A DNA stretch of 52,616 nucleotides, taken from positions 1 to 52,616 of the IMG/VR virus record IMGVR_UViG_3300020193_000035; one strand, given 5' to 3'. The notes below the pieces were generated by a model, which did no database searches, was not told where the DNA came from, and was given only the letters and a program-made list of their open reading frames with translations. This DNA comes from a virus. Taxonomy: Duplodnaviria > Caudoviricetes. Positions 32,151 to 46,188 of the stretch are shown here, in pieces. Position 1 is the stretch's first letter; each line of letters starts with the position of its first letter. The position numbers and the translations under genes were made by a program.

Positions 32151-32221
32151 CCAGCAGACAATTCAGCACCTACCGAAGATTAACGGTAGCACAAGTCAAT
32201 GACATTCTGTGAGCATTGTTG

Positions 32222-32229
32222 TATAAATA
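32222..32229 (+). promoter_or_regulatory. T4-type late promoter driving the tmRNA
   Basis: Exact TATAAATA immediately upstream of the acceptor piece. Confidence 0.75.
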
Positions 32230-32230
32230 T

Positions 32231-32686
32231 GTCTGTAGCGTTGAAGCAAGCTGAAAAGCATACTGGACGCGGGGGCGGTACCCGCCGCCTCCACCATAAG
32301 GAAATTGAATGAATATTGAAACACATTTTAAAAATCAAGTAGATTCCGGTGCTACGAAAATGTTCTTTTACGGACTTGAAAATGAAGACCAATCCAAGGT
32401 TGAAATTAAAAGTCACAAAGGTACATTGGAAAGTTTTCCAAATACACTAGAATATATTAGACATTTAAGTGAAGGTATTCCATTATTCAAAGTTTCTTTA
32501 TGATGGGGGCGAAATAGGATCGACAGGTGTGTAATAGGCAAGTGGAGTTACCGGGCGCAAGCACCGTTATCGCAAGAAAACAAGTAACTGCAAACGATAA
32601 TTTCTTTGCACTGGAAGACAATCGCCTAGCGGCGTAATTCTTTCGGGGTTTTGGTGGTTGCACCTGGCAACAGAAGCAATCACCGC
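32231..32686 (+). ncRNA. ssrA: Circularly permuted two-piece tmRNA: acceptor piece ~32231-32296, intervening segment 32297-32504, coding piece 32505-~32686
   Basis: T-arm GCGGG-GGCGGTA-CCCGC then CGCCTCC-A-CCA; downstream GGGGGCG completes the acceptor stem with a G3:U70 pair; tag frame 32590-32637 reads ANDNFFALEDNRLAA*. Confidence 0.95.
32309..32503 (+). CDS. 64-aa ORF inside the tmRNA intervening segment
   Basis: AAGGA RBS just after the CCA; the ORF fills the segment and its stop ends 2 nt before the 5' G of the coding piece; AT-rich. Confidence 0.65.
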   Translation: MNIETHFKNQVDSGATKMFFYGLENEDQSKVEIKSHKGTLESFPNTLEYIRHLSEGIPLFKVSL

Positions 32687-34166: not shown

Positions 34167-35348
34167 ATGATGAATTATGAATTTCCGCGCATCGAATGTA
34201 TAGAAGATGTTTTGCCAGCCATCAAAGGCCGCGACGAATTCGTAGTGGCTCATCGTGAATGGGGCACTGTGATCAACTATATGGTTTCCATGTCTGATAC
34301 TTTTCCGGACGTGGACTCTCCAACGATGGCCTTGCGTCGTGAATGTCGTGGGCTGCTGTTCTATCCAGACGGTCGCATCATGAGTCGTCGCCTGCACAAG
34401 TTCTTCAATGTGAACGAGCGCGAGGAAACTGCTGCGCAACGGATCGATCTGAGCCGGCCGCATGTGATACTGGAAAAGCTGGATGGATCCATGATCACTC
34501 CAGTCTATACCGACAAAGGTATACGTTGGGGCACCAAGATGGGCATCACTGATGTCGGCCAGCAGGCTGAACAGTTTGTCAACCGTCATAGTGTTTATCA
34601 GGAGTTTGCGGCCGAATGTCGTATCGCGGGTGTGACTCCCATCTTTGAATGGTGCAGCCGCAAGCAGCGCATCGTGGTAGACTATCCTGAAGATCGGCTG
34701 GTGTTGATAGCCATGCGCAACAATGTGACTGGCGCTTACACTTCTTTCCAGACTCTGAAAGGACTGGGTTCATACTGGCATATACCTGTGGTGCGTGCCT
34801 ATGCTGGAACCAGCCACAACATGCAGAGCCTGGTAGATGAGACTCGGGCCAGCGAAGGCATGGAAGGTTGGATCATACGTTTTGATGATGGGCAGATGCT
34901 CAAGGTCAAAGGCGAATGGTATCTACGTATCCACAAGACCAAGGACGGGCTTACTTTAGAAAAGAACGTGATCGATATGATCGTAAACGAAAAACTAGAC
35001 GACGTCAAGCCGTTCATGTTGGACGAAGATCGTCGGCGTGTGGAAGCCTTTGAGAAAGAGTTCTGGGATGGAGTAGCCAACAGTGTGGAAATATACGAAC
35101 GCTATTTCCAATCTGTTGTCAGCTCAGGACTGGATCGCAAGAGCTATGCATTGCAATATATGCCCACCGTCAAGGACAATGATCCTTTTGCTCCGTCATA
35201 CGTGTTTGCACGGTTTGACGGCAAAGATCCGCGCACCTTGGTATTGGAAGCTATCCGCAAGAACATTGGCACTCAGACCAAGGTAGATGCTGCCCGAAAC
35301 TTGTGGCGCGGTGCTCGGTGGAACTATTTGTTTGACGGAGATGCATGA
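34167..35348 (+). CDS. RNA ligase (T4 Rnl1-like)
   Basis: RECRGLLF, HKFFN, EKLDGS, FEW, EGWII, LKVKGEWY. Confidence 0.92.
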   Translation: MMNYEFPRIECIEDVLPAIKGRDEFVVAHREWGTVINYMVSMSDTFPDVDSPTMALRRECRGLLFYPDGRIMSRRLHKFFNVNEREETAAQRIDLSRPHVILEKLDGSMITPVYTDKGIRWGTKMGITDVGQQAEQFVNRHSVYQEFAAECRIAGVTPIFEWCSRKQRIVVDYPEDRLVLIAMRNNVTGAYTSFQTLKGLGSYWHIPVVRAYAGTSHNMQSLVDETRASEGMEGWIIRFDDGQMLKVKGEWYLRIHKTKDGLTLEKNVIDMIVNEKLDDVKPFMLDEDRRRVEAFEKEFWDGVANSVEIYERYFQSVVSSGLDRKSYALQYMPTVKDNDPFAPSYVFARFDGKDPRTLVLEAIRKNIGTQTKVDAARNLWRGARWNYLFDGDA

Positions 35349-39244: not shown

Positions 39245-39538
39245 ATGACTGACAAGACCTATACCATCGTTGGCACCTCTGTCTGCAATGGCAAGATGAA
39301 GGTCCGTTGGGCCACTGACATGATGCGCATCAAGGTTCTCCAGCGCACCGGTCACACCGACATCGAGCTCTTTGAGCTGCCTGAAGCCATGAACAAGGCT
39401 GACGCTGTGCAGTTCATGCTGGACAAGCATGGTGCCGCTATGACGCCTGAGCGCATGAAGGCAGCACGTTCTGCTCTGAACAAGCGCGGCGTTGAAGTGT
39501 CCGCAGAGGACGTGGTCGCTGAAGCTGCAAACGGGTAA
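39245..39538 (+). CDS. Conserved early phage protein
   Basis: Promoter TTGACG(39170)-17-TAAACT; KVRWA...GHTDIELFELPEAMNK. Confidence 0.8.
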   Translation: MTDKTYTIVGTSVCNGKMKVRWATDMMRIKVLQRTGHTDIELFELPEAMNKADAVQFMLDKHGAAMTPERMKAARSALNKRGVEVSAEDVVAEAANG

Positions 39539-40311: not shown

Positions 40312-40467
40312 ATGGTGTTGGTAGTGTCCAGCCTGGCCTTGATCGGATGTGCACAAGTGCAGAAGGTGTGTGACGCAAACGATCGTAGTCCAATTGAATC
40401 AGGCAACAGCCAGACAGGCAACAGCCAGGGATGTGTTGTCCCTGCGCTGATCAAGATAAGGTTTTAG
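40312..40467 (+). CDS. Small putative lipoprotein
   Basis: LALIGC lipobox-like; GNSQ duplicated; start uncertain. Confidence 0.45.
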   Translation: MVLVVSSLALIGCAQVQKVCDANDRSPIESGNSQTGNSQGCVVPALIKIRF

Positions 40468-40476
40468 AGTTTGAAC

Positions 40477-40553
40477 GCGCCTGTAGCTCAATTGGTCAGA
40501 GCAGCGGACTCATAATCCGTTGGTTGGGGGTTCGAGTCCCTCCGGGCGTACCA
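40477..40553 (+). tRNA. tRNA with CAT anticodon, probably Ile2 (lysidine type)
   Basis: Cloverleaf; GACTCATAATC anticodon arm resembles tRNA-Ile2; CCA encoded. Confidence 0.9.
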
Positions 40554-40607
40554 TCTTTTCGCAGGAAAGAAAAAGAAGTTTTTTGGCTAACTCAACCTTG
40601 ATTGAAG

Positions 40608-40635
40608 TTGACCAGATAAATAGACATCATACTAT
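40608..40635 (+). promoter_or_regulatory. Nested promoters: late TAAATA (40617-40622) and possible sigma70 TTGACC-16-TACTAT
   Basis: Motifs immediately upstream of the leader ORF. Confidence 0.6.
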
Positions 40636-40645
40636 GAGGACTATG

Positions 40646-40798
40646 ATGCAAACAACGTCGGTAACATCAATGTTGGAAACATGCTCACCCGAGATCGAGG
40701 AACGCCAATCTTTTGGCAACACACTCGGTCACCAGTGGTATGCCAAGCCAGCAAGTAGTGATCCGGTCAGGTCCTCGTTGGGGGGCTGTTCCAAGTAA
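40646..40798 (+). CDS. Putative attenuator leader peptide (50 aa)
   Basis: GAGGA RBS at 40636-40640; MQTTSVTSMLETCSPEIEERQSFGNTLGHQWYAKPASSDPVRSSLGGCSK; 3' end overlaps the antiterminator strand; in-frame ATGs also at 40634 and 40643. Confidence 0.65.
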   Translation: MQTTSVTSMLETCSPEIEERQSFGNTLGHQWYAKPASSDPVRSSLGGCSK

Positions 40799-40832
40799 GA
40801 ACAGACTCAACAAACAACAAGGACCCCGGATC
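40760..40832 (+). promoter_or_regulatory. Antiterminator stem
   Basis: GATCCGG(TCA)GGTCCT(C)GTTG 40760-40780 pairs with CAAC(A)AGGACCCCGGATC 40815-40832 (17 bp). Confidence 0.8.
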
Positions 40833-40852
40833 GAAAGATACCGGGGTTTTTT
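40823..40852 (+). terminator. Intrinsic terminator, mutually exclusive with the antiterminator
   Basis: ACCCCGG-ATC-GAAA-GAT-A-CCGGGGT followed by TTTTT. Confidence 0.9.
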
Positions 40853-40872
40853 ATTCATCGGACACAAAGAGG

Positions 40873-40901
40873 TTGACTGGCGCAACGAAGCTTAGTATAG
40901 T
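40873..40901 (+). promoter_or_regulatory. Sigma70-type promoter
   Basis: TTGACT-17nt-TATAGT. Confidence 0.7.
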
Positions 40902-40907
40902 ACCATC

Positions 40908-41030
40908 ACTACGTGCGATGCGGAACGAGACTGCGGAAGGCACGCTAAACTTCTTCCATATGGGCGGAGGCCAGGATGAAATCTGCGGCGGTAACGCAGA
41001 GAGTAAAATTGGTCGGCGATCATTGGAACG
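40908..41030 (+). ncRNA. Unidentified structured RNA at the head of the tRNA array
   Basis: Five stems found by eye; no credible ORF or RBS. Confidence 0.5.
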
Positions 41031-41045
41031 AATGTTAAAGTATAT

Positions 41046-41124
41046 CTCGGTGTAGGATAGTCTGGTTCATTCCGCCTGCTTTGGGAGCAGGATGTCGCAA
41101 GTTCGAATCTTGCCACCGAGACCA
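41046..41124 (+). tRNA. tRNA-Pro(TGG)
   Basis: Cloverleaf, CCA. Confidence 0.93.
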
Positions 41125-41128
41125 TTAT

Positions 41129-41202
41129 TGGGGATTCGTCTAACGGTAGGACGTCGGATTTTGATTCCGACTATGGTGGTTCGAGTCCATCATCCCCAGC
41201 CA
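41129..41202 (+). tRNA. tRNA-Gln(TTG)
   Basis: Cloverleaf, CCA. Confidence 0.93.
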
Positions 41203-41214
41203 ATTAGCCAATTT

Positions 41215-41289
41215 GGAGCGTTCGTCTATCGGCTAGGACGCTGGCCTTTCACGCCGGAAAGAGGGGTTCGATTCCCCTACGCTCTACCA
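41215..41289 (+). tRNA. tRNA-Glu(TTC)
   Basis: Cloverleaf, CCA. Confidence 0.93.
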
Positions 41290-41316
41290 AACACCATACT
41301 ATTTTGTATATTTAAT

Positions 41317-41394
41317 GTACCGATACCAGAGCGGTCTAATGGCTACGCCTGCAAAGCGTGTGATTCGTAGGTTCAAATCCTACTCGGTACTCCA
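41317..41394 (+). tRNA. tRNA-Cys(GCA)
   Basis: Cloverleaf, U73 discriminator, CCA. Confidence 0.92.
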
Positions 41395-41402
41395 AACGAA
41401 AT

Positions 41403-41485
41403 GCGCTAGTGGCGGAATTGGTAGACGCACTGGATTTAGGTTCCAGCGGGCAACCGTGGGGGTTCGAGTCCCTCCTGGCGCACCA
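41403..41485 (+). tRNA. tRNA-Leu(TAG)
   Basis: Cloverleaf with variable arm, CCA. Confidence 0.95.
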
Positions 41486-41494
41486 ATGATCAAT

Positions 41495-41570
41495 GGGGGT
41501 GTAGCTCAGTTGGGAGAGCGTTAGCTTTGCAAGCTAAATGTCGTCGGTTCGATCCCGTCCACCTCCACCA
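41495..41570 (+). tRNA. tRNA-Ala(TGC)
   Basis: Cloverleaf, G3:U70, CCA. Confidence 0.95.
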
Positions 41571-41577
41571 AATCAAT

Positions 41578-41656
41578 TCCGCAGAACCCGAGCTAGGTGC
41601 ATGGGCGTGACTGTTAATCACTGGTTAGCTGAGTTCGAATCTCAGATGCGGAGCCA
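41578..41656 (+). tRNA. tRNA-Asn(GTT), atypical
   Basis: GTT anticodon loop, T-arm and GCCA end; irregular base 8, acceptor base pair 7 and D-arm. Confidence 0.8.
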
Positions 41657-41660
41657 ATTT

Positions 41661-41739
41661 GACTCGTTAGCATAGTCTGGCCTATTGCGCCGCCCTGTCA
41701 CGGCGGAGGACACCGGTTCGAATCCGGTACGGGTCGCCA
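41661..41739 (+). tRNA. tRNA-Asp(GTC)
   Basis: Cloverleaf, GCCA. Confidence 0.93.
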
Positions 41740-41746
41740 TATAAAT

Positions 41747-41823
41747 GAGTCAGTAGTTCCAATTGGCAGAACGGCAGTCTCCAAAACTGCATGTTGTAGG
41801 TTCGAATCCTACCTGGCTCGCCA
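41747..41823 (+). tRNA. tRNA-Trp(CCA)
   Basis: Cloverleaf, GCCA. Confidence 0.93.
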
Positions 41824-41861
41824 GTTTAGTTTGTTTGATTTTTTTCGGTTTTGCTCTTTTA

Positions 41862-42518
41862 TCACTTGGCTAGATAGGTACGATTGAGCATGGTGTGGTT
41901 GTGGTCGGTAGGACCCCAATCACCATCAGGATGGAAAGCAATCACAGTCATGAAACTGTTTTCTGTGCGAAAGCGATGGCGTTCCTGCTCGGACAGAGAA
42001 AAGGTAGTGCCCGTGAGCAATGCATCTTCTTCTATCGCACCTGTTTCACCGTGGCTGCTGAATCCTTGTCCATCGATCACACAACCTATGCGTATGCTGG
42101 GGTGACGATGGAAAGTCTGGTCGATGCCAGGCGGGAAGTAAAGTAGATTGAGACTGCTGTCGCCCATGCGTGCTGGATACACCAGCAAGCTGTCGCTGCA
42201 CCCATCGATGTAACTGAGTCGGCCTTGTTTTTCGACCCAGCCGATGGTGTTCATGACCATGTATCCTAGGCGCAAGACCAAGAACAAACGATCTTCGGCC
42301 ACGCCGTTGACCTTATTGGCTACGCTGAGTCCAAAGTATTGTCTTGCTTCCAGGTGATGTGTTTTGCCATCCACTTCCAAGTGGGAGTTGCCATAGCTGT
42401 AGCCATAGATAGAACAATACTTGGCGAACTCAGGCAATTGGAACTTTTCGTTGTGGAACATGTGTCCTTTGGTAGGATACATACTGGTGAGTTGGTCAAG
42501 ATTTTTGCCGATAAGCAT
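41862..42518 (-). CDS. Cupin-domain protein
   Basis: FPPGIDQTFHRHPS.R.G.V..GQG...HRFRT...FHPDGDWGP; minus-strand TAAATA at 42542-42547. Confidence 0.85.
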   Translation of the reverse strand: MLIGKNLDQLTSMYPTKGHMFHNEKFQLPEFAKYCSIYGYSYGNSHLEVDGKTHHLEARQYFGLSVANKVNGVAEDRLFLVLRLGYMVMNTIGWVEKQGRLSYIDGCSDSLLVYPARMGDSSLNLLYFPPGIDQTFHRHPSIRIGCVIDGQGFSSHGETGAIEEDALLTGTTFSLSEQERHRFRTENSFMTVIAFHPDGDWGPTDHNHTMLNRTYLAK

Positions 42519-42565
42519 TTGAAATATTTCCTTTCAATGAATATTTATTGTTCTAAAGAACAACC

Positions 42566-42659
42566 ATGTCTGCCTCGAGCTAGGTTCGGGGCCGCGAATT
42601 CATTGCCGCCTGGTACATGCCAGTGAATGTTGGGTGCGAAAAGCCCAATACGGAGACAT
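42566..42659 (+). ncRNA. Candidate four-way-junction (tRNA-shaped) RNA of unknown class
   Basis: Closing stem ATGTCT/AGACAT enclosing three hairpins; no canonical anticodon loop, TTC loop or CCA. Confidence 0.45.
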
Positions 42660-42680
42660 AACCGTAGCGAACGAGATCGC

Positions 42681-42767
42681 GGGGAAGCGGCGAAGTTGGA
42701 GAGTCACGGCAGACTGTAAATCTGTTGCCTTAGGGCTGAGTTGGTTCGAATCCATCCTTCCCCACCA
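42681..42767 (+). tRNA. tRNA-Tyr(GTA)
   Basis: Cloverleaf with variable arm, CCA. Confidence 0.92.
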
Positions 42768-42909
42768 TAAATATCCCAACCAAAAGATTTGGTCAAACAC
42801 AAGGATCAACCATGCCAAGCAGTGGTAGTATCTAGTCGATATTGACAAGTTAGATGTATCACATCTCCTGTTGGTATCGACGCAATATTCGCGTTAGCAG
42901 GAGAAGATC

Positions 42910-43224
42910 ATGGGCTCCTTCATCCAAAATAGATTCGAGATCCTGGCACATTGGATCTCAGCGAACCTAGGACATCCTTATGCTTTCACCAGCGCACTTT
43001 TTGTCGTGACGCTGTGGGCAGTGACAGGACCGGTCTTTGGTTACTCAGACACGTGGCAGCTGGTGATCAATACCAGCACCACCATCATCACTTTCCTCAT
43101 GGTGTTCTTGTTGCAGAATACTGGCAACAGGACCATTGAGGAACTGCACGAGCGCCTTAGGGTGCTTGAAGAACAGAACAATGAATTGTTACACGAGATC
43201 AGGCAGATGCGAGCTGCCGATTGA
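42910..43224 (+). CDS. Low-affinity iron permease family (Fet4-like) small membrane protein
   Basis: WAVTGPVFGYSDTWQLVINTSTTIITFLMVFLLQNT signature. Confidence 0.9.
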   Translation: MGSFIQNRFEILAHWISANLGHPYAFTSALFVVTLWAVTGPVFGYSDTWQLVINTSTTIITFLMVFLLQNTGNRTIEELHERLRVLEEQNNELLHEIRQMRAAD

Positions 43225-43262
43225 TGAGATACAACATTGGTTATATACTTTTTGCTGTTTGC

Positions 43263-43337
43263 GGGCGGTTAGCTCAGTGGTAGAGCGCCTCGTTTACACC
43301 GAGGATGTCGGGAGTTCGACCCTCTCACTGCCCACCA
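43263..43337 (+). tRNA. tRNA-Val(TAC)
   Basis: Cloverleaf, CCA. Confidence 0.95.
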
Positions 43338-43342
43338 GACAT

Positions 43343-43417
43343 GCCGGATTAGCTCAGCGGTAGAGCAGCGGTTTTGTAAACCGAAGGTCGGGAGTTCAAT
43401 CCTCTCATCCGGCACCA
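43343..43417 (+). tRNA. tRNA-Thr(TGT)
   Basis: Cloverleaf, CCA. Confidence 0.95.
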
Positions 43418-43423
43418 ATTTAT

Positions 43424-43499
43424 TGCGGGTTACGTCAGTGGTCAGACTATCAGGCTCATAACCTGAAGGACGGAGGTTCGAATCCTTCACCCGCAACCA
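43424..43499 (+). tRNA. tRNA-Met(CAT), initiator-like
   Basis: TCAGGCTCATAACCTGA arm and CCCGCAACCA end resemble alphaproteobacterial tRNA-fMet. Confidence 0.88.
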
Positions 43500-43537
43500 T
43501 ACCAAAATAATTAACGCAGTTGGCATTGAAAAATTAA

Positions 43538-43629
43538 GGAAGTGTGGCAGAGCCCGGTTTAATGCACCTGACTTGAAATCAGACGAGGGGGCGACTCCTC
43601 CGTGAGTTCGAATCTCACCGCTTCCGCCA
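43538..43629 (+). tRNA. tRNA-Ser(TGA)
   Basis: Long variable arm, GCCA. Confidence 0.93.
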
Positions 43630-43657
43630 AACCTGGTTTGGCTGTTTTGAAGATTAA

Positions 43658-43749
43658 GGTGGGTTGGCCGAGAGGTTGAAGGCACTGGTTTGCTAAACCG
43701 GCGTACCTTGTAAAAGGTACCATTGGTTCGAATCCAATACCCACCGCCA
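43658..43749 (+). tRNA. tRNA-Ser(GCT)
   Basis: Long variable arm, GCCA. Confidence 0.93.
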
Positions 43750-43753
43750 TATC

Positions 43754-43830
43754 GCCTCCGTAACTCAGTGGACTAGAGTCATGCGCTTCGAACGCATTGG
43801 TCGGGGGTTCGAATCCCTCCGGAGGCTCCA
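43754..43830 (+). tRNA. tRNA-Arg(TCG)
   Basis: Cloverleaf, ATGCG-CT-TCG-AA-CGCAT, CCA. Confidence 0.92.
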
Positions 43831-43847
43831 GGGCATATAGTTCAGTT

Positions 43848-43921
43848 GCGGGCGTGATGTAATGGAAGCCTGAAACCCTGCCATGGTTTACGCACGAGTT
43901 CGATTCTCGTCGCCCGCTCCA
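43848..43921 (+). tRNA. tRNA-Gly(GCC)
   Basis: Cloverleaf with weak D-arm, TCCA. Confidence 0.88.
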
Positions 43922-43974
43922 CTTTATCCCACCTAGTATTCTCACGGACATCGCAATGGGAGTTTGGTGACTTT

Positions 43975-44050
43975 GGGCCGGTAACTCAATAGGTAGAGTA
44001 TCAGACTTTTAATCTGAGAGTTGTGGGTTCAAGTCCCACCCGGCCCCCCA
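43975..44050 (+). tRNA. tRNA-Lys(TTT)
   Basis: Cloverleaf, CCA (C discriminator). Confidence 0.93.
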
Positions 44051-44054
44051 AACT

Positions 44055-44137
44055 GCAAGCATGGTGGAATTGGCAGACACGAGAGACTTAAAATCTTTTG
44101 CTTAGGCGTGCCGGTTCGAATCCGGCTGCTTGCACCA
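44055..44137 (+). tRNA. tRNA-Leu(TAA)
   Basis: Cloverleaf with variable arm, CCA. Confidence 0.93.
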
Positions 44138-44160
44138 GGAATACCAAAATAATTTTTTCA

Positions 44161-44243
44161 GCCCTAGTGGTGGAATTGGTAGACACGCCTGACTCAAAAT
44201 CAGGTTCGCAAGAGTGGGGGTTCGAGTCCCTCCTGGGGCACCA
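44161..44243 (+). tRNA. tRNA-Leu(CAA)
   Basis: Cloverleaf with variable arm, CCA. Confidence 0.95.
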
Positions 44244-44269
44244 AAATAAATAAAAAACTGCGAGAGAAC

Positions 44270-44821
44270 ATGTTCTTTACAAAGCTAAAATTACCTGTTG
44301 AATTGAAGCCATATGATTATGGAATGAACAACCCAGAAGAATTCTGCGAGTTGGAAATGTCAATGGACCATATCAATAGAGAGTTGCATGACTTTTTACG
44401 CAGTCTAAATTTAGAAATAATAAAGCCTCGATATTTTCACAGCGGCCCTCCACATATATATCGCTTGCACATAGACATTCCAACAAGACCAAATCGTTAC
44501 ACAAGGCTGAACTGGGTGTTTGGTGGTGCAGGAAGCGAAATGGTTTGGTATGCATCGAAACCAGGCAAGGTTCCAACTGTGATGCAAAATAACTTGGGTG
44601 AAAATTATCAAATATACGACCTTGAGGATTGTGACGAAATTGGACGAGGACATGTTATTGGTCCAAATCTTGTGGACGTGGGTACCATACACAATTTAAT
44701 AGGTGGTAGCGAACAGCGACATTGTTACTCTTTCTTTCTTAGAGATAAGAAAGGAAACGGTGATAGACTAGAATGGTCACAAGCGATTGAGAAATTTGCT
44801 CCGTTCATGGAGAGATCATGA
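44270..44821 (+). CDS. Cupin/2OG-Fe(II)-like protein, paralogue A
   Basis: RLHID...NWVFGGAGSEMVWY...TIHNL...RHC (HxD...H...R). Confidence 0.7.
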   Translation: MFFTKLKLPVELKPYDYGMNNPEEFCELEMSMDHINRELHDFLRSLNLEIIKPRYFHSGPPHIYRLHIDIPTRPNRYTRLNWVFGGAGSEMVWYASKPGKVPTVMQNNLGENYQIYDLEDCDEIGRGHVIGPNLVDVGTIHNLIGGSEQRHCYSFFLRDKKGNGDRLEWSQAIEKFAPFMERS

Positions 44822-45384
44822 ACGCTACCTCTGACAGATGCTATAGAAATATCAATATACCAGTGGATTTCAGGCCATGGGACTTTGGTTATGCAAACAA
44901 AAATGAATTTTGTGAGCTTGATATCAAGCCCAACATGGTCAATACAGAAATACATGATTTTTTTGATTCAATTGGTCTTGTGCTTTTACGAGGAAGATAT
45001 TTTCATTGTTTGCCCGGTGTGAGATACAATTTACACACAGACAATAAATTTGAATCCAGTAGAGAACTGATAAAAGTCAATTGGGTATTTGGTGGTGCAG
45101 GCAGCAATATGATTTGGTACAATCTTAAACCAGGTAAAGGTCCTAGGATCTATAAAAATAGCATGGGCGAAGAAATAGTAGGGTACAATGAAGAAGACTG
45201 TGTTGAAATATGCCGTGCACATATTCCCAAACTGGCGATTGTAAATGTTGCGGTTGTGCATACAATACAAAATGCAAACGAATTTAGAGATTGCTATTCT
45301 ATGGTATTGGCGCACAAGCATAATAAAGTAAGATTGGAATGGAATGAGTCTATGGAAAAGATGTCTCCATATATCACAAATTAG
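44818..45384 (+). CDS. Cupin/2OG-Fe(II)-like protein, paralogue B
   Basis: NLHTD...NWVFGGAGSNMIWY...VVHTI...RDC; ATGA coupling. Confidence 0.7.
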   Translation: MNATSDRCYRNINIPVDFRPWDFGYANKNEFCELDIKPNMVNTEIHDFFDSIGLVLLRGRYFHCLPGVRYNLHTDNKFESSRELIKVNWVFGGAGSNMIWYNLKPGKGPRIYKNSMGEEIVGYNEEDCVEICRAHIPKLAIVNVAVVHTIQNANEFRDCYSMVLAHKHNKVRLEWNESMEKMSPYITN

Positions 45385-45422
45385 GTTGTTCTAAAACAAG
45401 CAATCTGTTATATTACAATATT

Positions 45423-45446
45423 GCGAGCGTGGAGAAATTGGTAAAC
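45423..45446 (+). pseudogene. 5' fragment of a tRNA-Leu-like gene
   Basis: GCGAGCG-TGGAGAAATTGGTAAAC matches the acceptor/D-arm pattern of the three Leu tRNAs here, then runs straight into an AAGGAGG RBS. Confidence 0.65.
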
Positions 45447-45459
45447 AAAGGAGGGCACG

Positions 45460-46062
45460 ATGCCTAGCGTATTCTTAGTAAGCGATACGCACTTTGGTCA
45501 CGAAAAGTGCTGCACGGTCTTCAAACGTGTAGACGGTAACCCGTTGCGTCCTTTTGCTTCAGCAGAAGAAATGGACGAAACCATGATCGCACTCTGGAAC
45601 GAACGTGTGCGCCCTTCTGACAAGGTCTACCACTTGGGTGATGTAGTGATCAGCCGCAAATACCTCAAGACGTTGAGCCGGCTCAATGGCGACAAGGTCT
45701 TGATCCGTGGCAATCATGATATCTTCCACTTGGAGGACTACCTGGAGCATTTCCGTGACGTGCGTGGTTACCATGTGATGAACGGACTTATTTTAAGTCA
45801 TATCCCTGTCCACGAATCAAGTCTTGGTAGGTTTGGTTGTAATATACACGGACACTTACACGCCAACAGAGTTATGAAGGCGAGAGGTGTCGATGTTAGA
45901 ACTGGTGAAATCTTATACAGCGATGAGATTGATCCAAGATACTGGTGTGCCTGTGTTGAACAAACAGACTTCGCTCCTATCCTGTTCGAGGATGTCTTAA
46001 AGAGGATTACGGAACAAGGTGGCACCGTGGGATTTAGAAACGGCAATGGGCCCACGATGTGA
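45460..46062 (+). CDS. Calcineurin-like metallophosphoesterase
   Basis: SDTHFGH, HLGD, GNHD, LSH, HGHLH. Confidence 0.93.
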   Translation: MPSVFLVSDTHFGHEKCCTVFKRVDGNPLRPFASAEEMDETMIALWNERVRPSDKVYHLGDVVISRKYLKTLSRLNGDKVLIRGNHDIFHLEDYLEHFRDVRGYHVMNGLILSHIPVHESSLGRFGCNIHGHLHANRVMKARGVDVRTGEILYSDEIDPRYWCACVEQTDFAPILFEDVLKRITEQGGTVGFRNGNGPTM

Positions 46063-46113
46063 GTGTTGACACCGTGGGCTTCATGCATATATAATGCCTG
46101 TGTGAAAAGATAT

Positions 46114-46188
46114 GCGGGTGTAGCTCAGTGGTAGAGCTTCTGCCTTCCAAGCAGAATGTCGTGGGTTCGAATCCCATCGTCCGCTCCA
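46114..46188 (+). tRNA. tRNA-Gly(TCC)
   Basis: Cloverleaf, TCCA; promoter TTGACA(46066)-18-TATAAT. Confidence 0.95.

What the first reader, a model, noticed from the sequence alone, without database searches (positions are those of the whole stretch)
40608..40852. Candidate 'all-amino-acid' ribosome-stalling attenuator gating the phage tRNA array
Seen: a late promoter (TAAATA 40617-22) precedes a 50-codon ORF (40646-40798), then a strong intrinsic terminator (40823-40852), then the tRNA array. Codons 39-45 of the ORF (40760-40780) are complementary over 17 bp to 40815-40832, which contains the whole 5' arm of the terminator. The stop codon sits in the loop of an inner hairpin (CTGTTC-caagTAA-GAACAG). 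The peptide contains all 20 amino acids, 19 of them within the first 34 codons, upstream of the antiterminator strand. Established: this is the geometry of trp/his-type attenuators, but those leaders carry runs of one or a few amino acids. Inference: a ribosome that finishes the leader melts the antiterminator and transcription stops. A stall at almost any codon (starvation, or host anticodon-nuclease attack) lets it form and transcribes the replacement tRNAs. That would be a general tRNA-shortage sensor in a phage; I know of no description of one.
Basis: partly seen in the sequence, partly recalled or inferred. Interest (0 to 1): 0.92.

Follow-up and report, generated by a model that had tools for sequence, protein, structure and literature searches.

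The report
Leader-ORF attenuator before phage tRNA genes
A short reading frame, a terminator and a competing RNA hairpin sit at the head of the tRNA genes in a family of uncultured lake jumbo phages, arranged like a switch that would let transcription run on into the tRNA genes when translation lags.

Summary
The helix between codons 39-45 and the terminator's 5' arm is beyond chance: -26.2 kcal/mol, reached by 0 of 2000 shuffles.

I found 10 homologues in uncultured phage contigs, giving 11 sequences with the window. All 11 keep the same parts:
- a sigma-70-like promoter
- ATGATG followed by an open frame of 44-51 codons; stops in frames 0/1/2 total 0/34/39
- a TAA at the tip of a long hairpin
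- a terminator stem starting 17-34 nt after the stop
- upstream pairing that covers the terminator's 5' arm, with compensatory changes

Conservation is at nucleotide level, not amino-acid level. The module always lies in tRNA regions.

Most likely this is a ribosome-dependent transcription attenuator. No expression data exist.

In the window and its two nearest relatives a conserved second promoter (40873-40901) follows the terminator. There the attenuator modulates the array rather than gates it.

The "all-amino-acid" idea is suggestive only. Of 59 database relatives, 29 contain all 20 amino acids, but they share ancestry. The leader's codons are not biased towards the phage's own tRNAs.

It is a new variant of a known mechanism.

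The parts
40477..40553 (+). tRNA-Met (CAT) just upstream of the module
   Evidence: ARAGORN and Rfam. A tRNA ends 70-90 nt before the ATG in 6 of 11 homologues.
40608..40635 (+). Promoter P1. It is sigma-70-like (TTGACC-16-TACTAT), with ATAAATA (40616-40622) inside the spacer.
   Evidence: Relatives carry TTGACA-17-TACAAT, 11 of 12 matches in L009, L208 and L220. TAAATA(A) is kept in the spacer. The -10 hexamer ends 6-7 nt before the ATG.
40636..40640 (+). Purine-rich GAGGA, Shine-Dalgarno-like, 5 nt before ATG 40646
   Evidence: Sequence. AGG/GAGG is kept in L150 and L162. In the other relatives it was part of the search pattern, so it does not count as independent there.
40643..40798 (+). 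Leader ORF: ATGATG start, 51 codons, then TAA
   Evidence: The frame is open in 11 of 11 homologues (44-51 codons). Stops in frames 0/1/2 total 0/34/39. P(open) per sequence in shuffles is 0.03-0.11.
40671..40754 (+). Structured domain inside the ORF (stem UGUUGG...CCAGCA with inner hairpins)
   Evidence: MFE. CCGAGG..ACGCCA..TTTGGCA..ACTCGG is invariant among the window, L150 and L162.
40760..40780 (+). Antiterminator 5' strand (segment 2), codons 40-46 of the 51-codon frame
40786..40804 (+). Apical hairpin CTGTTC-CAAGTAA-GAACAG with the stop codon (40796-40798) in its loop
   Evidence: The stop lies near the tip of the long hairpin in all 11 homologues.
40815..40832 (+). Antiterminator 3' strand (segment 3). 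40821-40832 is also the terminator's 5' arm.
40837..40852 (+). Terminator 3' arm and T6 run
   Evidence: The stem covaries among homologues: CCCCGG/CCGGGG, CCCTGG/CCAGGG, CCCTAGG/CCTAGGG.
40873..40901 (+). Promoter P2 (TTGACT-17-TATAGT) between the terminator and the tRNA array
   Evidence: 10 of 12 matches. It is invariant in L150 and L162. It was not found at that place in L009, L208, L213 or L220.
40910..41029 (+). Conserved structured leader RNA of the tRNA array. It consists of a hairpin with an AACGAGR loop, CACNNTAAAC, GGGCGG, and a helix enclosing a second hairpin.
   Evidence: nhmmer E 4e-27 and 7e-24. Ten sequences were aligned, and 15 of 16 predicted pairs show compensatory changes. 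No Rfam family matches.
41046..41823 (+). First block of the tRNA array: Pro, Gln, Glu, Cys, Leu, Ala, Asp, Trp

Best explanation
The region 40608-40852 is one member of a conserved ribosome-dependent transcription attenuator. It stands at the head of tRNA gene arrays in a group of uncultured freshwater jumbo phages.

A promoter drives a reading frame of about 50 codons. The last 10-14 codons form the 5' strand of a long hairpin, the antiterminator. The stop codon sits at the tip of that hairpin, and its 3' strand is the whole 5' arm of an intrinsic terminator.

The antiterminator is transcribed first, so it forms by default and transcription reads through. If a ribosome has reached the end of the frame when the polymerase makes the terminator's 3' arm, the antiterminator cannot form. 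The terminator stem starts 17-34 nt beyond the stop codon, so it folds freely and transcription stops.

A late, slow, stalled or absent ribosome therefore gives read-through. Read-through runs into a conserved structured RNA and the tRNA genes, and in most relatives first into a second small ORF.

Shown here: the anatomy, its conservation, the covariation and the kept-open frame. Inferred: translation, termination and the direction of the response.

In this window the array also has its own sigma-70-like promoter, so the element would add to tRNA transcription rather than be its only gate.
For: Helix in the window:
- Duplex -26.2 kcal/mol, reached by 0 of 2000 shuffles. The terminator is displaced in the real MFE and kept in 298 of 300 shuffles.
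- With 40760-40798 blocked, the terminator forms.

Family: 11 homologous DNA sequences.

Frame kept open:
- 0 stops in frame 0 against 34 and 39 in the other two frames. P(open) per sequence is 0.03-0.11.

The peptide itself is not what is conserved:
- Codon-position differences are 0.295/0.229/0.245.
- The conserved blocks coincide with predicted helices.
- The segment-2 motif GGGTCC/GGGTTC is read in all three frames among homologues.

Switch architecture:
- Before the 3' arm emerges, 6-12 of the 9-12 nt of the terminator's 5' arm pair upstream in 11 of 11 sequences. The partners lie just before the stop codon.
- The two states differ by 0-7 kcal/mol.
- Per-sequence shuffle tests: 0, 3, 3, 1, 27, 0, 4, 9, 1, 0 and 0 of 1000 shuffles reach the real duplex energy.

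Covariation:
- An arm C/U is matched by G/A in both partners.
- GGA to GAA is matched by CCU to CUU in L162 and L208.
- 10 of 14 antiterminator columns and 3 of 10 terminator columns carry both-sided changes.

Ribosome simulation:
- A footprint on codons of about 37 or later raises the cost of the antiterminator by 10-20 kcal/mol in all 11. Footprints further upstream do not.

Spacing:
- The stop codon lies 17-34 nt before the stem.
- Li et al. 2015 (PMC4824070, section 10 read) report that 10-15 nt of free RNA lets a terminator fold. They measured about 90% termination at 28 nt and under 10% at 5 nt.

Context:
- An ARAGORN tRNA lies 372-735 nt downstream in 8 of 11. Rfam tRNA-type hits lie downstream in L217 and L220. 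L211 has only 182 nt of flank.
- No + strand sigma-70-like site lies between the terminator and the downstream RNA in L213 or L220.
Against: - There are no expression data. Translation, termination and read-through are therefore unobserved.
- In the window, L150 and L162 an invariant promoter follows the terminator.
- In 6 of 11 homologues (L150, L162, L009, L208, L213, L216) the full-length MFE keeps the terminator. The antiterminator there relies on order of synthesis, not on stability.
- No consistent anti-antiterminator was found. There is only a 4-bp GCCC/GGGU pairing in one subfamily. Simulated stalls at codons 4-34 behave like no ribosome at all. The design cannot tell a stall from a failure to initiate.
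- There are no runs of regulatory codons.
- The -10 hexamer ends 6-7 nt before the ATG. Transcripts from P1 would be leaderless, and their translation efficiency in the unknown host is uncertain.
- Promoter-like sites in the region are no more frequent than in shuffles: 9 found against 10.1 +/- 3.6.
Confidence: 0.6

Rival explanations
1. It is an ordinary small gene with its own promoter and terminator. The roughly 50-aa peptide is the functional product. The long hairpin only stabilises the 3' end of the mRNA or tunes translation termination. Read-through is not regulated.
For: - The frame is kept open in 11 of 11 homologues.
- 59 database relatives share LG.SAYWS and NDRTPEI blocks.
- There is a Ser codon switch, TCT to AGC, between the window and L150.
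- In the window clade a promoter follows the terminator, as at an ordinary boundary between transcription units.
Against: - There is no third-position excess: 0.295/0.229/0.245.
- By my reading of the codon alignment, codons of the conserved residues are mostly invariant at the third position: 9 of the 12 degenerate columns with an identical residue.
- The C-terminal third changes frame and sequence while its pairing to the terminator arm is kept.
- A 3' stabiliser need not sequester the terminator's own arm.
- No Pfam or PHROG family matches.
Confidence: 0.13
2. It is an attenuator, but with a specific signal. The nascent peptide (invariant Trp, conserved DRTPEI) would act as an arrest peptide of the TnaC or SecM kind (comparison recalled). 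Alternatively the conserved RNA domain would bind a ligand or a tRNA. The switch would then report one molecule rather than general translation.
For: - M1, M2, Q3 and one Trp are invariant, and one Arg nearly so.
- The central blocks are strongly conserved across 59 clusters.
- A conserved structured domain lies within the ORF.
Against: - The window clade lacks DRTPEI and shares only 15-27% identity with the main clade, yet it keeps the switch.
- Conservation is at nucleotide level.
- No riboswitch or T-box family matches, even at E up to 10.
Confidence: 0.1
3. The terminated transcript of about 210 nt is itself the product. It would be a stable small RNA, possibly dual-function, acting in trans. 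The attenuator-derived rnTrpL of Sinorhizobium is an example (PMC6614838; only its listing and abstract start were seen). This does not exclude attenuation.
For: - The whole transcript is strongly structured: z = -5.61, reached by 0 of 200 shuffles.
- Conservation is at nucleotide level.
- It has its own promoter and terminator.
Against: - No target is known.
- A kept-open frame with the stop fixed at the hairpin tip is not needed for a trans-acting RNA.
Confidence: 0.1
4. It is a chance ORF and chance complementarity in a spacer between tRNA genes.
For: - The amino-acid diversity of the single window ORF is only mildly unusual.
- Promoter-like sites are not enriched.
Against: - Ten homologues keep every part.
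- Shuffle tests are significant in all 11.
- Stops in frames 0/1/2 total 0/34/39.
Confidence: 0.01

Closest known systems
Leader-peptide transcription attenuators of amino-acid operons (trp, his, leu, thr, pheA; Rfam Trp_leader RF00513, Thr_leader RF00506)
   Same: A short translated leader. An intrinsic terminator. An antiterminator whose 5' strand lies at the end of the leader ORF and whose 3' strand is the terminator's 5' arm. A ribosome at the end of the frame favours termination.
   Different: - There are no runs of cognate codons.
- The stop codon lies inside the antiterminator loop rather than before segment 2.
- There is no clear 1:2 hairpin.
- The downstream genes are tRNAs and a structured RNA, not biosynthetic enzymes.
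- The element is phage-borne.
- The Rfam scores are far below threshold: Trp_leader 17.8 against 41 bits, Thr_leader 13.3 against 55.
Ribosome-mediated attenuators that answer to translation inhibitors (leaders of ABC-F and other resistance genes such as vmlR, lmo0919, bmrCD). Recalled from the Term-seq literature; no paper was read here.
   Same: A leader ORF without amino-acid-specific codon runs. Any slowing of the leading ribosome switches a terminator off, so the element reports general translation stress.
   Different: Those elements control resistance proteins in Firmicutes chromosomes. This one stands before tRNA genes in phage genomes, and no sequence relation was found.
pyrBI attenuator of E. 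coli (recalled)
   Same: Termination depends on how closely the leading ribosome follows the polymerase, that is, on coupling rather than on particular codons.
   Different: The logic is the reverse. In pyrBI a close ribosome prevents the terminator hairpin directly. Here the stop codon lies 17-34 nt before the stem, so a close ribosome should permit termination.
T-box leaders (recalled)
   Same: A terminator/antiterminator switch that reports on tRNA status.
   Different: T-box leaders bind uncharged tRNA directly and have no translated frame. No T-box match was found at E up to 10.
T4 tRNA region with its small stable RNAs, species 1 and 2 (recalled)
   Same: A phage tRNA cluster with extra structured RNAs and nearby RNA-repair genes. 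An Rnl1 homologue is encoded at 34167-35348.
   Different: To my knowledge no leader ORF with a terminator switch has been described there. No sequence similarity to catalogued phages was found beyond the tRNAs themselves.

Membership tests
Ribosome-mediated (leader-peptide) transcription attenuator | A short ORF in the leader that is translated | tested here: inconclusive
   The frame is kept open in 11 of 11 homologues, with 0/34/39 stops in frames 0/1/2. It has a conserved ATGATG start. Translation itself was not observed.
Ribosome-mediated (leader-peptide) transcription attenuator | An intrinsic terminator between the leader ORF and the regulated genes | tested here: met
   A hairpin of -13.4 to -20.4 kcal/mol followed by a run of 5-6 T is present in 11 of 11 homologues. 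The stem covaries.
Ribosome-mediated (leader-peptide) transcription attenuator | A mutually exclusive antiterminator that joins the 3' part of the ORF to the terminator's 5' arm | tested here: met
   It is significant in 11 of 11 (0 to 27 of 1000 shuffles reach the real energy) and carries compensatory changes.
Ribosome-mediated (leader-peptide) transcription attenuator | Runs of regulatory codons for the amino acid being sensed | tested here: not met
   There are no runs. The leaders hold 18-20 kinds of residue in 44-51 codons.
Ribosome-mediated (leader-peptide) transcription attenuator | A 1:2 (anti-antiterminator or pause) hairpin that gives termination when the leader is not translated | tested here: inconclusive
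   RNAalifold on 6 sequences gives only a 4-bp GCCC/GGGU closure. None is seen in the window fold. Simulated upstream stalls behave like no ribosome.
Ribosome-mediated (leader-peptide) transcription attenuator | The regulated genes depend on read-through, with no promoter after the terminator | tested here: inconclusive
   In the window, L150 and L162 a conserved TTGACT-17-TATAGT follows the terminator, so the feature is not met there. No + strand site is found in L213 or L220. Only weak ones are found in L009 and L208. Phage-specific promoter types cannot be recognised with these tools.
Ribosome-mediated (leader-peptide) transcription attenuator | Read-through changes when translation of the leader is slowed or abolished | not testable with these tools
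   This needs reporter assays or 3'-end mapping.
Rfam Trp_leader (RF00513) / Thr_leader (RF00506) | A score at or above the curated gathering threshold | tested here: not met
   Scores are 17.8 against 41 bits and 13.3 against 55 bits. The aligned part is mostly the terminator.
T-box or any other Rfam cis-regulatory family | A covariance-model match | tested here: not met
   No family reaches its threshold in the window or in 10 related loci, apart from tRNA and tmRNA types. Nothing relevant appears at E up to 10 in 40540-41060.

The most novel reading that the evidence does not exclude
The leader is a general sensor of aminoacyl-tRNA supply, built by the phage. The frame would hold at least one codon for nearly every amino acid. 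Shortage of any one charged tRNA, through starvation, phage-induced codon demand or a host anticodon nuclease, would then delay the leading ribosome, keep the antiterminator, and raise transcription of the phage's own tRNA array. That would be a homeostatic feedback on a viral translation-rescue island (tmRNA, Rnl1 RNA ligase, tRNAs).

For it:
- 29 of 59 database relatives contain all 20 amino acids in 43-50 residues, and 57 of 59 contain at least 19.
- The expectation is P(20) = 0.05-0.11 with M, Q and W held fixed.
- Frame 0 averages 19.2 kinds against 16.8-18.0 in the other five frames.
- Cys turns up at several different positions.

Against it:
- The relatives share ancestry.
- The diverse core is held at nucleotide level.
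- Leader codons show no preference for those read by the phage's tRNAs.
- 22 of 59 relatives lack Cys.
- One natural variant removes the only His.
Probability: 0.25. Interest if true: 0.9.

Novelty: new variant of a known kind. Interest (0 to 1): 0.8.

Why it matters
Leader-peptide attenuation is a classic bacterial mechanism tied to amino-acid biosynthesis. Five full-text searches found no description of one in a phage, or of one placed before tRNA genes.

If it works as its anatomy suggests, large phages regulate their tRNA supply by measuring translation directly. That bears on two questions:
- why phages carry tRNA arrays at all
- how phages answer host defences that cut tRNAs

The family is compact (about 250 nt), has clear alternative structures and offers many natural variants. 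It could therefore be tested directly with reporters.

The work also uncovered a second conserved structured RNA between the attenuator and the tRNAs. It matches no catalogued family.

Tried and rejected
**Searches that found no relative of the element**
- blastn of 40400-41100 against catalogued phages matched only tRNAs.
- 42 loci around relatives of the cupin-like gene were mostly not syntenic, and nhmmer found nothing there.
- The leader peptide as query found no relative in viral contigs or in metagenome contigs, where 596 pattern matches gave no relative.
- 80 viral loci around Rnl1 relatives gave no hit by nhmmer or tblastn.
- The neighbouring proteins 44270-44821 and 39245-39538 gave one distant hit and none.
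- An exact 28-mer of the upstream tRNA-Met gave 3 unrelated loci.
- An exact 22-mer of the spacer RNA gave 0 hits in viral contigs.
- The start-region pattern in species genomes gave 18 hits, none of them true.

**Rows dropped from the pattern scan**
- L209 and L218 (the same sequence), L210 and L212 were dropped. They lack the -35 and TAAATA context, the peptide similarity and the terminator.
- L214 duplicates L208.
- L219 is the contig of L009.

**Other negative or unusable results**
- L128 is the closest relative (Rnl1 88% identical), but its contig ends 800 nt after Rnl1 and cannot show the element.
- The four DNA runs that were laid are near-identical over the element. Run X2 shows 40606 A>G and 40731 A>G, so they gave almost no variation to analyse.
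No statement about expression can be made.
- Leader codons are not enriched for codons read by the phage's tRNAs: 22 of 51, P = 0.25.
- ORF1 and ORF2 match no family in Pfam or PHROGs.
- I considered and rejected 6S RNA, Y-RNA-like, GOLLD/ROOL and T-box identities for the two structured RNAs. None gave an Rfam match.
- In one search, four database proteins (P0001, P0023, P0031, P0058) kept an N-terminal extension that my trimming missed. Counting by hand on the trimmed forms gives the same numbers of residue kinds.
- Supplementary files of papers were closed and were not consulted.
Full report
**What the window is.** The window is a whole IMG/VR viral contig of 52,616 bp that CheckV rates 14% complete. 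It is therefore a fragment of a jumbo phage. DNA runs from lake-water metagenomes hold it. It carries:
- a permuted alpha-type tmRNA at 32195-32684
- a T4 Rnl1-type RNA ligase at 34167-35348
- ribonucleotide reductase and a DnaB-like helicase
- 21 tRNA genes between 40477 and 46188

**Checking the observation.**
- TAAATA lies at 40617-40622.
- The ORF 40646-40798 encodes 50 residues with all 20 amino acids. Nineteen of them occur in the first 34 codons.
- The stop codon lies in the loop of CTGTTC/GAACAG.
- 40760-40780 pairs with 40815-40832 over 17 bp.
- A terminator hairpin of -18.2 to -18.6 kcal/mol is followed by T6.

The TAAATA lies in the spacer of a sigma-70-like site, TTGACC-16-TACTAT (40608-40635).

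The helix is not chance.
- The duplex is -26.2 kcal/mol against -14.0 +/- 2.4 in dinucleotide shuffles, and 0 of 2000 shuffles reach it.
- The real minimum-energy fold (MFE) displaces the terminator, while 298 of 300 shuffles keep it.
- The whole transcript 40640-40860 folds with z = -5.61.
- The antiterminator domain alone is -35.7 kcal/mol. Blocking 40760-40798 restores the terminator.

The amino-acid diversity of this one ORF is only mildly unusual. P(>=19 kinds in 34 codons) is 1.1-1.5% and P(20 in 50) is about 3%. In the window, 2 of 526 ORFs of at least 34 aa do as well.

**Finding relatives.**
- Catalogued phages, viral loci around two neighbouring genes, and peptide-based scans gave nothing.
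- A metagenome scan with the Rnl1 protein returned 80 loci. Two of them, L150 and L162, hold homologues of the element (nhmmer E 2.5e-15 and 7.4e-15). They also hold homologues of the spacer that follows it (E 7e-24 and 4e-27).
- A profile of the three sequences then found L009 (E 3.2e-5).
- A pattern taken only from the promoter's -10 element and the start found 13 viral loci. Nine are true homologues and four are not.

After removing a duplicate (L214 = L208) and a second copy of one contig (L219 = L009), there are 11 sequences: the window, L150, L162, L216, L213, L009, L208, L215, L211, L217 and L220. The search pattern contained nothing of the ORF body, the stop, the hairpin or the terminator. 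Those features are therefore unbiased by the search.

**What is conserved.** All 11 sequences share the same parts.
- A promoter-like site with TAAATA(A) in its spacer. It reads TTGACA-17-TACAAT in L009, L208 and L220, with 11 of 12 matches.
- ATGATGCAA placed 6-7 nt after the -10 hexamer.
- An open frame of 44-51 codons ending in TAA.
- An intrinsic terminator.

The frame has 0 stops in 11 sequences, against 34 and 39 in the other two frames. The chance that a shuffled version stays open is 0.03-0.11 per sequence. The frame is therefore kept open by selection.

The sequence, however, is not conserved in the way proteins are.
- In the six-member subfamily with a reliable alignment, differences per codon position are 0.295/0.229/0.245.
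- The codons of the conserved residues (GGC, GCC TAT TGG, GAT CGC, GAG ATT) are invariant in all three positions.
- These blocks coincide with helices predicted by RNAalifold: UAGGC/GCCUA, UGGUCU/AGAGAUU and GCGA/UCGC.
- The segment that pairs with the terminator arm (GGGTCC/GGGTTC) starts at codon position 1, 2 or 3 in different homologues. It is therefore held as RNA while the peptide tail varies.

**The switch.**
- *Fold before the 3' arm appears.* I folded each RNA as it exists before the terminator's 3' arm is made. In 11 of 11, 6-12 of the 9-12 arm nucleotides pair with a strand inside the ORF that ends just before the stop codon. The stop lies near the tip of the resulting hairpin.
- *Energy of the two states.* The state with the terminator enforced and the state with the 3' arm unavailable differ by 0-7 kcal/mol.
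- *Shuffle test.* The 18 nt ending at the last arm base were tested against shuffled upstream sequence. 0, 3, 3, 1, 27, 0, 4, 9, 1, 0 and 0 of 1000 shuffles reach the real energy.
- *Covariation.* Where the arm differs (CCCCGG, CCCUGG, CCCUAGG; GGA or GAA), both partners differ to match. This includes C-G to U-A between the sisters L150 and L162, at the cost of a Ser-to-Phe change. With columns anchored on the CCC core, 10 of 14 antiterminator columns and 3 of 10 terminator columns carry both-sided changes. The pairs come from per-sequence MFE folds, so the outer columns show that a helix exists there rather than strict column homology.
- *Ribosome simulation.* A simulated 30-nt ribosome footprint on codons of about 37 and later penalises the antiterminator by 10-20 kcal/mol in all 11. 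Footprints on codons 4-34 leave it as without a ribosome.
- *Spacing.* The stop codon lies 17-34 nt before the terminator stem. Li et al. 2015 (PMC4824070; abstract and section 10 read) report that 10-15 nt of free RNA suffice for the hairpin. They measured about 90% termination at 28 nt against under 10% at 5 nt. A ribosome waiting at this stop should therefore permit termination while holding the antiterminator open.

**Context.**
- ARAGORN finds a tRNA 372-735 nt downstream of the ATG in 8 of 11 sequences.
- L217 has an Rfam tRNA hit at its contig end. L220 has a tRNA-Sec-type hit 610 nt downstream. L211 has only 182 nt of downstream sequence.
- In 6 of 11 a tRNA also ends 70-90 nt upstream of the ATG.
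- Seven relatives have a second small ORF of 44-54 aa (MKKIDL... or MQAIES...) after the terminator. The window, L213, L216 and L217 lack it.
- All sequences with enough flank then carry a conserved structured RNA before the tRNAs.
- An invariant sigma-70-like promoter (TTGACT-17-TATAGT; window 40873-40901) precedes that RNA only in the window, L150 and L162.
- L213 and L220 have no + strand candidate there. L009 and L208 have only weak ones, no more than shuffles give.
- ATAAATA occurs 9 times on the + strand against 5.3 expected, mostly just upstream of ORFs.
- If P1 is used, the transcript would start at or next to the first ATG and be leaderless. If the TAAATA motif is used, the GAGGA at 40636-40640 would be in the 5' leader. 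Both of these are inferences.

**The all-amino-acid idea.**
- The 11 leaders hold 18-20 kinds of residue, with a mean of 19.2. Random codons of the same composition give about 17.0. The other five frames give 16.8-18.0.
- A profile search of 5.8 billion proteins gave 59 clusters at E <= 0.01 among 132 candidates. All are unnamed or "hypothetical" and none has a Pfam domain.
- Of those 59, 29 hold all 20 amino acids, 28 hold 19 (22 of them lacking only Cys) and 2 hold 18. The mean length is 48.
- With M, Q and W held fixed, the null gives a mean of 18.05 at 48 codons. P(>=19) is 0.26-0.42 and P(20) is 0.05-0.11 for 44-50 codons.
- The excess is real but not independent. Most members share one conserved core that already holds 19 kinds, and that core is constrained as RNA.
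- Counting four deep lineages as independent gives a probability of the order of 0.01. The thresholds were chosen after the fact.
- Against a tuned sensor: leader codons are not enriched for codons read by the phage's tRNAs (22 of 51; windows of phage genes give 18.9 +/- 3.9; P = 0.25).
- Also against it: the 40731 A>G variant in run X2 turns the only His into Arg, at a base that is unpaired in the predicted fold.

**Verdict.**
- The best explanation is a ribosome-dependent attenuator that reports whether the leading ribosome keeps up with the polymerase, placed at the head of phage tRNA arrays (confidence 0.6).
- In this window it modulates the array rather than gates it, because of the second promoter.
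- It fits the logic of leader-peptide attenuation but lacks codon runs and a clear 1:2 hairpin. It is not a member of any Rfam leader family.
- Five full-text searches found no description of such an element. For those papers I saw only search listings, except PMC4824070.

Noticed in passing
window 40910-41029; also L150, L162, L009, L208, L213, L215, L216, L217, L220: A conserved structured RNA lies between the attenuator and the first tRNA. It has a hairpin with an AACGAGR loop, then CACNNTAAAC, then GGGCGG, then a helix that encloses a second hairpin with a GYGRUAA-type loop. Fifteen of 16 predicted pairs show compensatory changes in 10 sequences. No Rfam family matches. In several relatives it continues for another 150-250 nt, with a roughly 20-bp long-range helix. 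Weaker profile hits occur in L203, L200, L082, L199, L202 and L064.
   Followed up: partly
L009:8379-8537; also L208, L211, L215, L220, L150, L162. Remnant in window about 40860-40901.: A second small ORF of 44-54 aa, basic and helical-looking (MKKIDL... or MQAIES...), follows the terminator in 7 of 11 homologues. In the window only its 3' end survives, and that end carries promoter P2. No Pfam or PHROG family matches.
   Followed up: partly
window 32195-32684, 34167-35348, 40477-46188, 45460-46062: Genes that serve or repair the translation apparatus cluster together: a permuted alpha-type tmRNA, a T4 Rnl1-type RNA ligase, 21 tRNAs and a calcineurin-like phosphoesterase. The tmRNA-Rnl1 neighbourhood is about 85% identical in DNA to L128. 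A tmRNA also lies upstream of Rnl1 in L162 and L150.
   Followed up: partly
window, + strand: 3139, 6811, 11243, 31955, 32223, 40616, 42767, 44246, 47688: ATAAATA occurs 9 times on the + strand and 4 times on the - strand, against 5.3 expected per strand. Most copies lie 20-60 nt before a start codon or directly after a tRNA. It may be a phage-specific (late-type) promoter motif.
   Followed up: partly
window 40400-40429: A 15-nt unit, CAGGCAACAGCCAGR, is present as two tandem copies just before tRNA-Met. One contig of run X2 lacks 15 nt there.
   Followed up: no
L220:1461-1545: A tRNA-Sec-type Rfam match just above threshold (48.1 against 47 bits) lies downstream of the module, where ARAGORN calls no tRNA. 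L215 has a similar sequence before its tRNA-Phe.
   Followed up: no
L009:6734-6825; L208:232-323; L213, about 150-260 nt upstream of the module: Unusually long (92 nt) genes called tRNA-Ile with anticodon TAT recur next to the module in three relatives.
   Followed up: no
window 41862-42518 (- strand): A 218-aa protein with weak cupin similarity is encoded on the opposite strand inside the tRNA array. It has 42 relatives in viral contigs at up to 72% identity. Of the 14 loci checked, 11 have no tRNA within 6 kb.
   Followed up: partly
L009:8332-8358; L213:10304-10328; L208:578-602: In relatives the pattern scan also calls the attenuator's terminator on the opposite strand, because the loop and the upstream flank are A-rich. 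It may therefore act in both directions.
   Followed up: no
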